A stretch of DNA of 64,000 bases, taken from Pecten maximus (lineage: Eukaryota). A program made the position numbers. Position 1 is the first letter of the stretch. Each line of letters opens with the position of its first letter. The stretch lies in the NCBI RefSeq assembly GCF_902652985.1, contig NC_047023.1, positions 11,842,001-11,906,000 of the forward strand, read 5' to 3'. This document shows positions 15,001-56,200 of the stretch, piece by piece.

Positions 15001-18000
15001 TTGTATATTATCCATGTCATTAAAACACACACACACAAAATCTCCATATAACAAGCTAATTGTTTAAAATTGACAGCTTGCTCATTCTAACTACTTCTCG
15101 GTTAAGGAGGGGATAATTGCAATATCCAGCGATATCATTTCAAGTTTCAAACAAAGTCAATCTGTATGTGTATATCGAAACAGCTGCATAATGCCATGGT
15201 TATTTGATATAACATTCGTAAACAACACGAACTAGTTGTGTTCTCCTTTAGCATGCATTTCGCGTAACAATTTTGCCGAAATTGAAAAGCAGTTCAGAAA
15301 ATTATATAAGAAAAGCAAGGTCCCTGATTCAACACGATGCATGCTCAGAATTGAAGATAATTCAGTGAAATTTGGCTAGAGTAGCGTTATGATATAGATG
15401 GCCTTACACTCGTAAGTTATATAAACGAGCTAGTTATCCTGTCTACCATGGGAAGGGAAAGGTCATTCTAAGCCTATGCGAAAAGACATGTTATGGATAT
15501 AACAACTTTGAAAGAAAGACGGAAATGTATACATTTTGCCACAATGCACAAAATGAAATACTTCACTCTCCTGGCGTTTTTCTTTGATTATCAATCGCTA
15601 TAAAGCGATCTGACTTCGACACTTTTATACTTCTACGTTCCTCAGCAGTTTGCGGTAAGAATTGCTTATATACCTTCTATCAGATATGTATTTAGATAAA
15701 AATCTAGTGTATGCTGTGTAGTTACGGCAAGACCTCAGCTTCTACCTCAGCTTCACCAGCACTTGAACGGAATCACCATAGCTTTCAATGTATAATTTCT
15801 TATTAAATCTGTTCAAACACATAATAATCATCTTTAGCTACTTTTGCAAAGCTGTCTTAACAAATTATAAATACTCATAAAAATAATCCGGCAGACCTGA
15901 AAGTACCATTAACCTCACCAAATCGTCTTCTAACGACTACGGTTACTTTTGCAAAGACATTTCAACGGTTTATACATGAATTTTATTGTTGTCGCATAGC
16001 GTTCAATATAAACAAGAAACATAAAAAACGGATAAAAACTAAATTCAAGAACAACAAAAATCTAAATATTGAAACTTTGCGGTATCAGTATATGTAAATA
16101 TAAACAAAATTCATATGATAAGTAATGATAATTCAACTGTTCTTCAATGACATCGGGCATTTATATAAAGCAGACTTCCATCATTTTAATGGCGGAAATA
16201 GAACTCGGATTAAAGAGAGGATATTAATAATGCGAAAATAGTTCCAAATGTATACAAAATGTACAAAACAGAAGATAATTCCATATGCCTTGCATTTTTT
16301 AATGTGATGTCATTTTAGCTATAAGACGGCTTGCATGAAAAATGCAGTGTACACATAACTTATGTAACGTTTTAGTACCTTTCCAAATCATTATGGTGCC
16401 ACAAAATTGATAAAGTACCTTTGACATTTTAGACATTTAGAAATGGATTTTATACCTTTACTTACAGTTGTCGAGATTCCCTTAGCAGCCGAAACAGCAA
16501 TTAATTAATATATTGCAGTAAAATCATTTTTTCCATCATAAATAGAGTTTCATACTTTGTATGGTTACTTATATGCATGAAATTACGTTTATTTTCACAT
16601 AAAACAGCCAAACCTTTTCTTCCGTTCTATTATTACAAATCCAATACATTACTAAACTAAATTCGTTCAAAAAAGTGAATGTTTCTACGATAATGAGGAC
16701 TTCAATGAAAAATACCAGTACCAATACAGCGAAATGTTGATTACCATGTAGTTATGTCATGGCCAAATAAAACAGGTTAATCTTTGTCCAATACTTTGAG
16801 GCCAGCCATCGCCGCGAATCCAAGAAGTGTTAGAAAAACTTTCAACAAACTGTAACCGTTTGATAATTCTTTTTGCAGAATTTCAAAGAATGTTACGTAA
16901 ACAAAGGTTCCAGCGGCCAGACTTTGTAGGACCCCGGAACTGATATCCTGTGCGGAACCTGTCGAACCTGAATTGGATATAGCGATGCCAATCGCGATTC
17001 CTATCGGTGACACTGAAGCCAGGTAAAGGACATATATAATGATCTGAATGTTACTGTCGATAATTTCTTTCATCTTCATGCAAACACTGAACACAACTAT
17101 GATCTTGTGGATAGAAATGGCTATCGTGAGTGTCCATATACCAACCTCGGTGTCCTGAAGACCTATCGCCATGCCTTCGAATATCATATGTATCGAAAGG
17201 GCGATTACAAGAATAATCGTTCGGATTCGTTTTGTAGTTTTAGAACGACCATCACCAGAAATGTCCAAAGTTTCCGAATTGTTTTTTGTGCTGTCAATAG
17301 CGGGGGAATCTGTCTGTGATGTTTCATGTGTTTCATCCTTACTGAAGGCAGTTTCTCCTATTGTTTGGGAAGCTTCTGAACATATTTCTTCACTTTTTGT
17401 TTCATCTGACGCAAAAACTGTATTGATTTTACCATTGACTCTGTAATCTTTGGGGGCTTCAACATCTGTTTTGGATATCTTTTCACGCAAGACATTATCC
17501 TTATCACCGTGATCGTGTCCATGGTCAAGAAAAGGACTATCGTTGCCTTTACTGGCCAGTCCTATGATGTGTTCTAATCCTAACACGATAAAAAATCCAG
17601 CACCAATCAGCACCCCTGATAACGGATATTCTACTTCCGGTAAAGCTTCAGCAACCGTCTCCATTGATTCCTGAATAAGATGGAGGATGGAAGTGCCAAG
17701 AAAAACGCCTCCCGCAAAACAATTCATCAAACCAACGAAATATTGAAGCCTGGAAAGATTTTTCATTTTGTTCGACATCACCTTTAAAAGCCATAGCGGA
17801 GTTATTCCAAAAGTGAATGTTAACCCTAACAAAAGGAACATTGTTCCTATCTTAGCCATAGAAATCATGGCGAATCCTTGTATTCTCTGTCTGGTGCTGT
17901 GTTGGACTGTTAAAGGTGAAATGACACAGAGGGCATCTGTAGTTGGGGATGTATTCGGTTAGACAACTGGACGCGGTATATATACTATTGTAGCATACAC

Positions 18001-53247: not shown

Positions 53248-56200
53248 ATTATATACTTGATACAAGGTGTTTCTTAACGGTGTTTTTAACTGACAATGCA
53301 GGTACAAATTTAAAGAAAATTATCCAAATCATTCGTATATAAGATGTAAAGATGTACAATGCATCATCATCATTACAAACTGCAAACAATAAGTTAATTG
53401 ATAACCATACATACCCATAATGTGTATATATATATGACAAACATACACATACACACCCAACCTCTCTCACACACACACCACACACACACATCACCCACCC
53501 ACATACAAATATTCAGTTTCCTGGTAGCCTGATCAATCGTGCCAGGGATCAGTTTCTGTGTTGGTCAAATCAACTCCAACCACGTCCACCGAGTCATCGG
53601 CACGATTGACCACCCTCCACACTGTTAAATACCAGTTACATCTAGCATATACAGAAGAAAACAAAAAACATACATACACTTTCAAAACAATCTCGTGCAT
53701 TATCCATCATCATCCATTATCATCCGCATCATCATCCTATCTATCTGATTTTTCCCACTCATGCAACATTACAATATATCTGTGCAATACTCGTACCTTT
53801 ACACACAACTATATATATTTATATACATAAATAATTGTAATTGTTTATTTTTGACTTTTAAATCACTACATTATGTATAATTCCCACTCACACTTCACTC
53901 ATACAGTAGAGTACAAACATACACACACACACATACACACCCACACACACACACACACATTAACATGCACCTCACATGACACACCTACACAAAACAGGTT
54001 TGTTAAACTTCAAAGTACTGTATCAAGGCGTTTAACTCAACATTACACTAATTTCGATTTATGGCAATAGACGTTGTCTAACACAATGATAAAGAAAGTA
54101 TTATAATTGGACTTTGTAAAAGTGAGCAAAAAAGTGTTAAATACTTAAATACAACTTGTTGATCGTTAAATTTATCATAAATTCAAAATGCATTTCAACT
54201 AAAGACTTTACTGTGGAGTTTTACATTTACCTGAACAGGAATTGTTTTGTATGGCTATGAATTCCTTTTTTATGTCCAAAATCATGTCCATGAAATTTTG
54301 TTGCGCATACAGCAGACAGATAATGGACATAAATTTACATTTCCTTCGTGATTCACGGATTAATTTGAAATACAAATGTAAGCCATTTCTTTTCCACAAC
54401 CCACTCCAAATGTTCAACTTATTTTTACATCAGGGTCTCATGTTTTCATTTCATCAATTGTACATTGTACTTCTAGTATTGTGTATTAATACAACATATC
54501 AATCCCATACTTTGAAAATGAATATCGAAAAATCAGGTTCCATATTTCTTCAGTCGATTTCAGGTTTTCGAGGTTGCAGAAAAAACAACAAGTTTTCCTT
54601 ACAATGATCGCGAGAGATCTTTCGTTTTTTTGTTTTTTTGTTTGTTCTTTGGGGTTTTTTTTTCGGGTGTCATGTTGAGCCTGTTTTGAGACATGACTTT
54701 GAACATTTTTTAAACTTTTTTTTTCATATAATTCAGTGACATCTGACAGGATGTTAGCCTTCCTCGTTCATTTTATCTGTCGACCTTGACAAAGAAATGC
54801 AAAGTATTATGTTATCCAATCTCTCTAGTTCTTCCACTACTTTGATAAACATAATGGACGCTAATCAGAATCAAGTGCCTTTAGGCCGGCCATAGCAGCG
54901 AACCCAAGGAAGGTTAAAAACACTTTTAGCAGGCTGTATCCATTCGACAGCTCCTTTTGAAGAATTTCGAAAAATGTTACATAAAGGAAAGTTCCGGCAG
55001 CCAGGCTCTGTAATATCCCAGAACTTTTGTTCTGCACAGATTCGTTTCCAGAACCTGTACTTGTTATTCCAAGTCCTATTGCTATCCCAATTGGAGACAC
55101 TAACGACAGATATAGGATATATAGGATAATGCGGAGATTTCCTTCTACAATCTCCTTCATCTTCAGTGCGACACTAAACACAATGACAGCCTTATGTACC
55201 GATATGGCGGCCACCAATGTCCAGGTATTTGAGACAGTGTCCTGTAACCCTATAGCCATTCCCTCGAATATCATGTGTATAGACAAAGCGATTACGAGAA
55301 TTACGGCTCGGATCCGTCTCGTTGTTTTTGAGCGTCCATCACCGGAAGTATCAATGATTGTTGATTTCGCCTCATTAACTTCAACAGGCGTCGGTGTATG
55401 TGAGCTTTCAGCATTAGATAATACTGTTTGTCCAGTGCTGTGGTAACCTGATGGACGGATACCCGCCTGGTTGTCTACGCTCTGTGCTATAGGTATTGAA
55501 AGAGGATTGAATGAAGATCCTTTTGGTGGTTCCACTTTGGAGACCTGTGCTTGATATTCTTGATTGTGACCCTTTAGTCCGTGATCATGACCATGGTCTA
55601 AAAAGGGACTGTCCTCATCTTTACTGAAGAGTCCTATAGCGTGTTCTATTCCTAGAACGATGAAAAATCCCACACCGATGAGCGCTCCTGACAACGGAAA
55701 TTCTACTTCCGGTAAAGCTTCAGCAACTGTCTCCATCGACTCCTGAATAAGATGAAGTATGGCCGTTCCAAGAAAAACTCCCCCAGCGAAACAGTTCATC
55801 AAACTCACTAAGTACTGCAGGCGAGATATATTCGTCATTTTGTTTGATAAAAACTTCAGAAGCCATATTGGGATCACACCAAAGAAAAATGTAATCCCAA
55901 ATACTACGAATATAGCCGCGATTTTGTTTGTGTCGGCCATGGTGGCGTTGTGTCAGTTTACAACACTATTCTAATGTCTATAATATCCTAATTGTGGCGT
56001 GATATGATCCTGTCTCGATCTTGACCGACCATCCACTATCGGACTTTACCTATGATCGTGCGCGTCAAAAAGGTATGACTTTACCTATGATCATATGTAT
56101 CAAGGTACGGCTACGTGAAACGGCATTGATAACATGTGAGGTGTACGTGTACATGTGTAGATAACATCCATTTATAATACTGTGGTTGTATCAGTGATAA

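What the first reader, a model, noticed from the sequence alone, without database searches (positions are those of the whole stretch)
16777..55940. Seven-copy tandem array of ZIP1/2/3-like metal importers showing birth-and-death evolution
Seen: seven co-oriented copies, comprising one divergent copy (1), one broken copy (3) and one very recent pair (5/6). Known: HxxxEG in TM4 with HK in TM5 defines ZIP subfamily II, which has three members in mammals and imports Zn2+ and related divalent metals. Inference: a lineage-specific expansion that may contribute to the strong Zn/Cd accumulation known in bivalves.
Basis: partly seen in the sequence, partly recalled or inferred. Interest (0 to 1): 0.75.

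Follow-up and report, generated by a model that had tools for sequence, protein, structure and literature searches.

The report
Tandem zinc-importer gene array, king scallop
A 39-kb stretch of king scallop DNA carries seven side-by-side copies of a ZIP1/2/3-type metal importer gene, six intact and one broken; this is an ordinary but well-preserved species-specific gene-family expansion, and its link to metal accumulation is untested.

Summary
Seven co-oriented (minus-strand) ZIP genes (Pfam PF02535, E about 1e-57) each lie in one uninterrupted ORF. Copy 1 is divergent (58-64% aa identity to the others). Copy 3 is broken by a +1 and a +2 insertion. Copies 5 and 6 lie in a 6.1-kb whole-unit duplication (CDS 98.8% identical).

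The window is Pecten maximus: RefSeq's 'LOW QUALITY PROTEIN ZIP1-like' model is copy 3. All seven copies keep the ZIP-II signature: TM4 HxxxEG, TM5 HK with Lys in place of the second metal site, and a TM7 Glu. An AlphaFold model has eight helices and matches only BbZIP structures.

In a tree, copy 1 groups with a 'B' type shared by other scallops. Copies 2-7 form one P. maximus-only clade (98/96) inside an 'A' type that has 1-2 copies in three other scallop genomes. The membrane core is under purifying selection (omega about 0.16); the about 73-residue (80-column) variable part of the disordered cytosolic loop evolves almost freely (about 0.68).

So birth-and-death expansion is supported. The link to Zn/Cd accumulation is untested, and one fact weighs against it: Mizuhopecten accumulates Cd heavily with few copies. 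The 5/6 pair diverges by about the species' heterozygosity (1.71%), so a retained-haplotype assembly artefact is not excluded. Expression could not be checked.

The parts
16777..17868 (-). Copy 1 (B-type ZIP-II gene), intact single ORF, 363 aa plus stop
   Evidence: (PF02535, E 3.5e-58). It groups with Mizuhopecten_B, Ylistrum_B and an unnamed B-type protein.
23613..24710 (-). Copy 2 (A-type), intact single ORF, 365 aa
   Evidence: (E 8.7e-58); within the P. maximus-only clade.
29222..30322 (-). Copy 3 (A-type), broken by a +1 insertion in the loop region and a +2 insertion just after TM4. Frame pieces: 29885-30334, 29545-29979 and 29222-29689.
   Evidence: RefSeq models it as a 250-aa 'LOW QUALITY PROTEIN: zinc transporter ZIP1-like [Pecten maximus]' (P0014).
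36661..37746 (-). Copy 4 (A-type), intact, 361 aa (P0001)
   Evidence: (E 1.2e-57); structure model; Foldseek.
41969..43057 (-). Copy 5 (A-type), intact, 362 aa (P0004)
   Evidence: Differs from copy 6 by 3 nonsynonymous and 9 synonymous changes.
48068..49156 (-). Copy 6 (A-type), intact, 362 aa (P0005)
54861..55940 (-). Copy 7 (A-type), intact, 359 aa (P0006)
   Evidence: (E 2.9e-57).
41632..47721 (.). Duplication unit holding copy 5. It abuts the next unit, 8 bases apart.
   Evidence: Self-blastn: 96.2% over 6193 columns against 47730-53897. Per-300-column identity is 94.6-99.7%.
47730..53897 (.). Duplication unit holding copy 6
   Evidence: It is followed by an (AC)n microsatellite at 53913-53959.

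Best explanation
This is a real tandem array, in the king scallop Pecten maximus, of genes for ZIP subfamily II (SLC39A1/2/3-type) divalent-metal importers.

How each protein most likely works (inferred): each intact copy encodes an eight-helix, elevator-type carrier that moves Zn2+ into the cytosol, and very probably Cd2+ and other divalent metals too. Transport would run through a single metal site formed by His224 and Glu228 (TM4), His251 (TM5) and Glu327 (TM7). Lys252 would occupy the place of the second metal ion found in other ZIP subfamilies.

How the array arose:
- An old duplication, shared by scallops, gave a B-type gene (copy 1) and an A-type gene.
- In the Pecten lineage the A-type gene was amplified to six copies by repeated tandem duplication of units of about 5-7 kb (unequal crossing-over).
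- One copy (3) has since been disabled by frameshifts.
- One unit (5/6) was duplicated very recently.

The membrane core of all copies is held by purifying selection. The long disordered TM3-TM4 cytosolic loop diverges almost freely, so the copies probably differ in regulation or trafficking rather than in transport chemistry.

Shown here: gene count, integrity, family, motifs, fold, phylogeny and selection pattern. Inferred: substrate, direction of transport, expression and the duplication mechanism.
For: - Family: Pfam ZIP at E about 1e-57 for 6 of 6 intact copies, and matches for all 3 pieces of copy 3.
- Nearest proteins: of 583 proteins with E<=0.001, 120 are listed. The nearest named ones are scallop, oyster, mussel and gastropod 'ZIP1-like/ZIP3-like/SLC39A1_2_3' and fish ZIP1.
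- Organism: P0014 '[Pecten maximus]' lies on the same 45,552,881-bp contig and equals copy 3's frames B+C.
- Motifs: H224, H251, K252 and E327 are invariant in 53 of 53 aligned relatives. E228 is Glu in 9 of 10, Asp in one. All seven window copies keep them.
- Human ZIP2: His-175, Glu-179, His-202 and Glu-276 bind the metal. Lys-203 replaces the second ion, a trait stated to be unique to subfamily II. ZIP2 was assayed by Cd2+ flux (passages of PMC6527156). The elevator mechanism and the ZIPII lysine are described in passages of PMC9278863.
- Fold: AF2 mean pLDDT 77.2, pTM 0.68, eight helices, residues 113-204 of low confidence. The top 9 Foldseek hits are all BbZIP (probability 1.00, TM by target 0.50-0.66); the next hit has E 3.8. 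phmmer against PDB finds only BbZIP variants (5 sequences, E about 1e-4).
- Phylogeny: the scallop clade has 100/100 support, and the A/B split holds (37 rows). c2-c7 form one clade at 98/96 (15 rows).
- Other scallops: Mizuhopecten 1 A + 1 B on one contig; Ylistrum 2 A + 1 B; Argopecten 1 A. Each of those clusters holds 1-2 member sequences.
- Selection: pairwise dN/dS among c2-c7 is 0.21-0.33. The median is 0.16 in the core and 0.68 in the variable loop (14 pairs, c5-c6 left out).
- Unit duplication: flanks are homologous between units at 76-86%, and the 5/6 unit is 96.2% identical over 6.2 kb.
Against: - No expression evidence could be reached. In one search each window protein is seen on one contig only, the genome contig.
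- No transport data exist for any scallop ZIP in the papers searched.
- The MRE core TGCRCNC is not enriched: 9 sites in the window against about 20 expected from base composition, and only 2 within 3 kb upstream of an ATG, both at c7.
- Copy 3's conceptual translation has no unique change at columns otherwise invariant among 14 scallop sequences. Its two frameshifts are therefore either very recent or assembly/polishing errors in a paralog-rich region.
- Copies 5/6 differ by about the genome-wide heterozygosity (1.71%, PMC7191990), so the seventh copy may be an artefact.
- The tree holds only fish ZIP1 as vertebrate representatives and no other ZIP subfamily. Placement relative to ZIP2, ZIP3 and the other subfamilies rests on motifs and names, not on a tree.
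- Copy numbers in other scallops come from annotated proteins only, so unannotated copies would be missed.
Confidence: 0.85

Rival explanations
1. The 5/6 pair is not a biological duplication. It is two haplotypes of one heterozygous locus laid side by side by the assembler, so the true array has six loci (five intact).
For: The two 6.1-kb units are 94.6-99.7% identical per 300 columns. Coding and non-coding parts are equally similar, and 9 indels of 5 bp or more lie inside the unit. CDS dS is 0.036. Heterozygosity of the raw reads was 1.71%, the assembler was wtdbg2, and a term search of the genome paper found no 'purge' or 'haplotig' step (PMC7191990, passages). The units abut directly, 8 bases apart.
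Against: There is no N gap anywhere in the window, whereas false duplications often flank gaps (recalled). The assembly was manually curated. Tandem duplication is clearly the mode of growth of the rest of the array. A second, independent P. maximus assembly exists (PMC8437780) but could not be compared here.
Confidence: 0.25
2. The array is mostly dead weight: intronless, retrocopy-like genes that are not expressed, with the apparent constraint being a leftover of recent origin.
For: All CDSs are intronless. One copy is already broken. No transcript-derived sequence of these proteins was seen (one contig each).
Against: Six of seven ORFs are intact despite dS of 0.24-0.43 between copies, and omega is 0.16 in the membrane core. 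Without selection, that divergence would give roughly as many replacement changes per site in the core as in the loop. All metal-site residues are kept. The duplications carry kilobases of flank, which indicates DNA-level tandem duplication rather than independent retroposition. The A-type copies share a conserved ...GCCACC-ATG-G start context. A- and B-type relatives occur on short, transcript-sized contigs (1461 and 1888 bp) from unnamed sources.
Confidence: 0.07
3. The expansion is an adaptation that directly raises Zn/Cd uptake and explains metal hyper-accumulation in scallops.
For: ZIP-II carriers transport Cd2+ as well as Zn2+ (human ZIP2). In oysters, zip1 and zip3 were tied to Cd content by GWAS, expression and knock-down, as reported in passages of PMC11988029. 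The primary knock-down paper is not held.
Against: Mizuhopecten yessoensis accumulates 'abnormal levels' of Cd (start of abstract in the listing) with one A and one B protein. No MRE enrichment was found. There are no tissue-expression or exposure data for these genes. Tandem expansions of many transporter families are common in bivalves; for example, passages of PMC9679248 report 673 SLC genes in P. yessoensis.
Confidence: 0.15

Closest known systems
Human/vertebrate SLC39A1-3 (ZIP subfamily II), best characterised for ZIP2
   Same: Same Pfam family. Same TM4 H-x-x-x-E-G and TM5 H-K motifs, with Lys in the position of the second metal site, plus a TM7 Glu. About 30-35% identity to fish ZIP1 over 98-100% of the length. 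Eight helices with a cytosolic TM3-TM4 loop that carries a short His-rich motif (HGHDHG).
   Different: The CDS is intronless. The TM3-TM4 loop is about 95-100 residues, several times longer than in the aligned fish ZIP1 proteins, and is predicted to be disordered. The relation to ZIP2 and ZIP3 individually was not tested.
BbZIP (Bordetella bronchiseptica ZIP, GufA subfamily; PDB 5TSA, 6PGI, 7Z6M, 8GHT)
   Same: The only solved structures matched by sequence (E about 1e-4) and by fold (top 9 Foldseek hits). The TM4 'H..PEGMAIG' aligns with the scallop 'HMIFEGMAIG'.
   Different: Sequence identity is 14-16%. BbZIP has a binuclear site. In the alignment its TM5 'QD..E' positions are H-K-..-I in the scallop protein, so the second site is replaced by Lys and one carboxylate is missing. 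BbZIP also has no long loop.
Oyster zip1/zip3 (Crassostrea angulata)
   Same: Bivalve ZIP-II genes implicated in Cd accumulation by GWAS, expression and knock-down (passages of PMC11988029). Ostrea ZIP1-like and ZIP3-like proteins are 35-39% identical to copy 4 and lie in the bivalve sister clade.
   Different: The scallop clade is separate, on a branch of 0.81 changes per column. No functional data exist for it. The oyster genes were not reported as a seven-gene tandem array in the passages read.

Membership tests
ZIP (Zrt/Irt-like protein, SLC39) superfamily | Full-length match to the Pfam ZIP model PF02535 above the gathering score | tested here: met
   Six intact copies score 194.8-197.8 bits against a 35.1-bit cut-off, covering profile positions 3/4-322 of 323. 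Two of the three pieces of copy 3 pass the cut-off; the middle piece scores 31.2 bits.
ZIP (Zrt/Irt-like protein, SLC39) superfamily | Eight transmembrane helices with the ZIP fold | tested here: met
   The AF2 model of copy 4 has 8 helices, with pLDDT of 85-95 in most helix blocks. Foldseek ranks 1-9 are all BbZIP at probability 1.00, and rank 10 has E 3.8.
ZIP subfamily II (SLC39A1/2/3) | TM4 His and Glu (H-x-x-x-E-G) and TM5 His forming a single metal site | tested here: met
   H224 and H251 are invariant in 53 of 53 relatives. E228 is kept in all 7 window copies and in 9 of 10 sequences. The residues' roles are taken from human ZIP2 mutagenesis.
ZIP subfamily II (SLC39A1/2/3) | Lys directly after the TM5 His, replacing the second (M2) metal ion | tested here: met
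   K252 is invariant in 53 of 53 relatives and present in all 7 copies. It aligns to the Asp of BbZIP's TM5 'QD'. It is stated to be unique to subfamily II in PMC6527156 and PMC9278863.
ZIP subfamily II (SLC39A1/2/3) | Groups with vertebrate ZIP1, ZIP2 and ZIP3 to the exclusion of ZIP-I, LIV-1 and GufA in a phylogeny | not tested
   The tree holds three fish ZIP1 proteins as the only vertebrates and no other subfamily. Named ZIP2/ZIP3 and outgroup sequences were not fetched. Support comes only from source names (ZIP1-like, ZIP3-like, 'zinc transporter 1/2/3', SLC39A1_2_3).
ZIP subfamily II (SLC39A1/2/3) | Imports Zn2+ (and Cd2+) into the cytosol | not testable with these tools
   This needs a transport assay or yeast complementation.
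Birth-and-death tandem gene family | Lineage-specific duplicates, copies of different ages, and at least one pseudogene in one array | tested here: met
   c2-c7 form a P. maximus-only clade at 98/96. dS is 0.036 for c5/c6, 0.24-0.43 for the other A pairs and above 1.9 against c1. Copy 3 carries two frameshifts. Caveats: copy 3 could reflect assembly indels, and 5/6 could be a haplotype artefact.

The most novel reading that the evidence does not exclude
Scallops carry their own ZIP-II clade, with an intronless CDS and a loop of about 100 disordered residues. Its six-fold amplification in Pecten maximus would be adaptive. The copies would keep identical transport chemistry but be sub-functionalised through the fast-evolving cytosolic loop. 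One example is the altered His-rich motif HGHDHG to HGHHNE in copies 5/6. This would give tissue- or condition-specific metal uptake that contributes to the unusual Cd/Zn handling of pectinids.
Probability: 0.15. Interest if true: 0.55.

Novelty: new member of a known kind. Interest (0 to 1): 0.3.

Why it matters
Bivalve ZIP1/ZIP3 genes are current candidates for the control of cadmium load in farmed shellfish, so far in oysters. A scallop-specific ZIP-II clade, with a species-specific six-copy burst and near-identical transport cores but divergent loops, offers two things. It is a natural series for asking what the cytosolic loop does. It also gives a set of markers for copy-number-versus-metal-load studies in a commercially fished species.

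As it stands this is a routine tandem expansion of a well-known transporter family in an already annotated genome. No report of this array turned up in the searches. Supplementary tables of scallop SLC surveys (for example Xun et al. 2020, not held) could not be seen and may list these genes.

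Tried and rejected
- **Metal-response elements:** the MRE core TGCRCNC occurs 9 times in the window against about 20 expected. Only 2 sites lie within 3 kb upstream of a start codon. This gives no support for MTF-1-type control.
- **Gene conversion:** a longest-run permutation scan over 279 variable sites and 10 pairs gave a lowest uncorrected p of 0.0045 (c4-c5). That run lies where c4, c5 and c7 share states by descent, so it is not convincing.
- **Retrocopy relics:** A-rich runs on the gene strand lie 211-3083 bases downstream of the stops at no constant offset, which is uninformative.
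- **Relaxed constraint in copy 3:** none was seen (0 unique changes at invariant scallop columns; dN/dS against the others 0.22-0.32).
- **Other genes or RNAs in the spacers:**
  - 10 of the longer spacer ORFs gave no Pfam hit at E<=0.01.
  - No Rfam family reached its gathering score.
  - No tRNA was found.
- **Literature:** searches for a published account of the array found none. The P. maximus digestive-gland transcriptome paper does not mention zinc transporters in its main text.
- **Left unused on purpose:**
  - That tree is therefore left undone.
No synteny comparison with other mollusc genomes could be made.

**Spliced models:** every copy is one uninterrupted ORF. Copy 3 was searched piece by piece.

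Full report
**Observation.**
- The window (64,000 bases, no N) contains seven minus-strand open reading frames that match Pfam ZIP, PF02535.
- Six are intact single ORFs of 359-365 codons:
  - c1 16777-17868
  - c2 23613-24710
  - c4 36661-37746
  - c5 41969-43057
  - c6 48068-49156
  - c7 54861-55940
- Their Pfam E-values are 3.5e-58 to 2.9e-57, covering nearly the whole profile.
- The third copy (29222-30322) is spread over three frame pieces.
- tblastn with the copies finds these seven loci and nothing else in the window, so the array is complete within the window. It is flanked on the high-coordinate side by an unrelated Mab-21 gene.

**Relations between the copies.**
- DNA identity is 64.4-66.5% for c1 against the rest, 85.5-89.7% among c2-c7, and 98.8% for c5/c6.
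- Protein identity is 58.5-64.0%, 79.8-88.3% and 99.4% respectively.
- Relative to all six others, copy 3 has a +1 insertion in the loop region and a +2 insertion just after TM4. The first leads to a stop after about 149 codons.
- Neither insertion sits in a homopolymer (read off the alignment).
- The duplications are DNA-level unit duplications. Self-blastn shows homologous flanks between units (76-86%). It also shows an abutting pair of 6.1-kb units, 41632-47721 and 47730-53897, at 96.2% over 6193 columns.
- Identity within that pair is 94.6-99.7% per 300 columns, equally high in coding and non-coding parts.

**Organism and annotation.**
- The protein search (583 hits at E<=0.001 among 7300 candidates, 120 listed) returns the window's own proteins on a 45,552,881-bp contig.
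- On the same contig it returns P0014, 'LOW QUALITY PROTEIN: zinc transporter ZIP1-like [Pecten maximus]'. Its sequence is copy 3's second and third frames joined.
- The window is therefore king scallop, from an annotated RefSeq assembly, and copy 3 is already flagged there.

**Family and mechanism.**
- The nearest named proteins are scallop, oyster, mussel and gastropod 'ZIP1-like', 'ZIP3-like' or 'SLC39A1_2_3', followed by fish ZIP1 at 30-35% identity.
- In an alignment of 53 relatives, H224, H251, K252 and E327 (copy-4 numbering) are invariant. E228 is Glu in 9 of 10 sequences and Asp in one. All seven window copies keep 'HMIFEG' and 'HK'.
- For human ZIP2, mutagenesis and modelling assign metal binding to His-175, Glu-179, His-202 and Glu-276. 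The charged Lys-203 stands in for the second metal ion. The authors call this single-site arrangement unique to subfamily II, and they assayed transport with Cd2+ (passages of PMC6527156). The same lysine and the elevator mechanism are described in passages of PMC9278863.
- The correspondence of scallop E327 to ZIP2 Glu-276 is my inference. No human sequence was aligned.
- An AlphaFold2 model of copy 4, built from the 53-sequence alignment, has mean pLDDT 77.2 and pTM 0.68. It has eight helices: 2-34, 38-75, 83-110, 207-233, 238-266, 270-297, 302-334 and 339-358. Residues 113-204 form a low-confidence loop.
- Foldseek against the PDB returns BbZIP entries at ranks 1-9 (probability 1.00), and nothing else below E 3.8. 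phmmer against PDB sequences finds only BbZIP variants.
- In that alignment BbZIP's TM5 'QD..E' corresponds to scallop 'HK..I'. This is the expected ZIP-II replacement of the second site.

**Evolution.**
- A 37-row tree puts all scallop sequences in one clade (100/100) on a long branch, sister to other bivalve ZIP-II proteins.
- That clade splits into a B type (copy 1, Mizuhopecten_B, Ylistrum_B and one unnamed protein) and an A type.
- In a 15-row scallop tree, copies 2-7 form one clade at 98/96, apart from the A-type proteins of Mizuhopecten, Argopecten and Ylistrum. Ylistrum has its own pair.
- In one search the A and B proteins of Mizuhopecten share one contig, as do Ylistrum A1 and B. The A-B neighbourhood is therefore older than the Pecten burst.
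- Those clusters hold 1-2 member sequences each. The annotated proteomes of three other scallops thus show 1-2 A copies against six here. Unannotated copies would be missed.
- Ages differ widely: dS is 0.036 for c5/c6, 0.24-0.43 for the other A pairs, and saturated (above 1.9) against c1.

**Selection.**
- Pairwise dN/dS among c2-c7 is 0.21-0.33.
- When split, the median is 0.16 for the 288 core columns and 0.68 for the 80 variable loop columns (14 pairs, c5-c6 left out).
- The start of the loop (LDHGHDHG) and its end (IIDTSGDGRSKTTRRIR) are conserved among scallops.
- Copies 5/6 alone change the His-rich motif to HGHHNE. This includes H120N at a column otherwise invariant in scallops.
- Read through its frameshifts, copy 3 shows no unique change at invariant scallop columns and no raised dN/dS. 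Its disablement is therefore recent, or the two indels are assembly errors.

**Caveats and rivals.**
- The 5/6 divergence is of the order of the species' heterozygosity: 1.71% in the raw reads. The assembler was wtdbg2, and a term search of the genome paper found no haplotig-purging step (PMC7191990, passages).
- A retained-haplotype duplication therefore cannot be excluded. I put it at about 0.25.
- No expression data could be reached. The case for function rests on intact ORFs, constraint and a conserved start context.
- No MRE enrichment was found, and the gene-conversion signal is not convincing.
- The proposed link to Zn/Cd accumulation is plausible by analogy with oyster zip1/zip3 (passages of PMC11988029) and with ZIP2's Cd2+ transport.
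- However, Mizuhopecten is described as accumulating abnormal Cd levels (start of abstract in the listing) and shows only one A and one B protein. Copy number alone does not explain accumulation.

**Novelty.**
- Five literature searches found no account of this array.
- Supplementary tables are closed, and the scallop SLC survey cited (Xun et al. 2020) is not held. It may list these genes.
- The family, mechanism and mode of expansion are all well known, and the genes are annotated in RefSeq. I rate this a new member of a known kind, of modest interest.

Copy 3 was searched as three separate pieces.
- The window is not human.
Synteny with other molluscs therefore stayed unchecked.

Noticed in passing
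window 60320-62710 (-): A 796-codon stop-to-stop ORF with Pfam Mab-21 nucleotidyltransferase (E 9.2e-12) and Mab-21_C (E 1.9e-13) domains lies about 4.4 kb beyond copy 7 on the same strand. It is a cGAS/Mab-21-like gene, a family recalled to be expanded in bivalves. It also appears to be a single long ORF.
   Followed up: partly
window 63409-64000: A 14-bp minisatellite (consensus AAGTAATAACAAAT, about 41 copies, 79% matches) runs to the end of the window. Self-blastn also shows its internal repeats.
   Followed up: no
window 10466-54650: Long homopolymer-like runs are strand-biased: 10 T-rich runs against 2 A-rich runs on the + strand, which makes them poly(A)-like on the ZIP gene strand. They lie 211-3083 bases downstream of the stops at no fixed offset. 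They may be tails of retroposed elements or relics of an old retrocopy; this is unresolved.
   Followed up: partly
window 24711-24770, 30323-30382, 37747-37806, 43058-43117, 49157-49216, 55941-56000: The 60 bases upstream of the A-type start codons are conserved. They contain an 'ATTATAGAC'-like block and a near-perfect ...CAACGCCACC-ATG-G start context. Copy 1's upstream sequence is unrelated. Beyond about 70 bases upstream, c2 no longer aligns with c4 or c7, although it still aligns with c3 and c5/c6.
   Followed up: partly
window 3347-3475 and 31034-31256: An (ATCTT)n pentanucleotide array of about 26 copies, and a 114-bp direct repeat (2 copies, 95% matches) in the spacer between copies 3 and 4.
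   Followed up: no
P0008/P0015 and P0009/P0013: In Mizuhopecten yessoensis and in Ylistrum balloti, an A-type and a B-type ZIP protein are reported on the same contig (891,077 bp and 1,223,479 bp). This suggests the A-B neighbourhood is conserved across scallops. The DNA could not be fetched.
   Followed up: no
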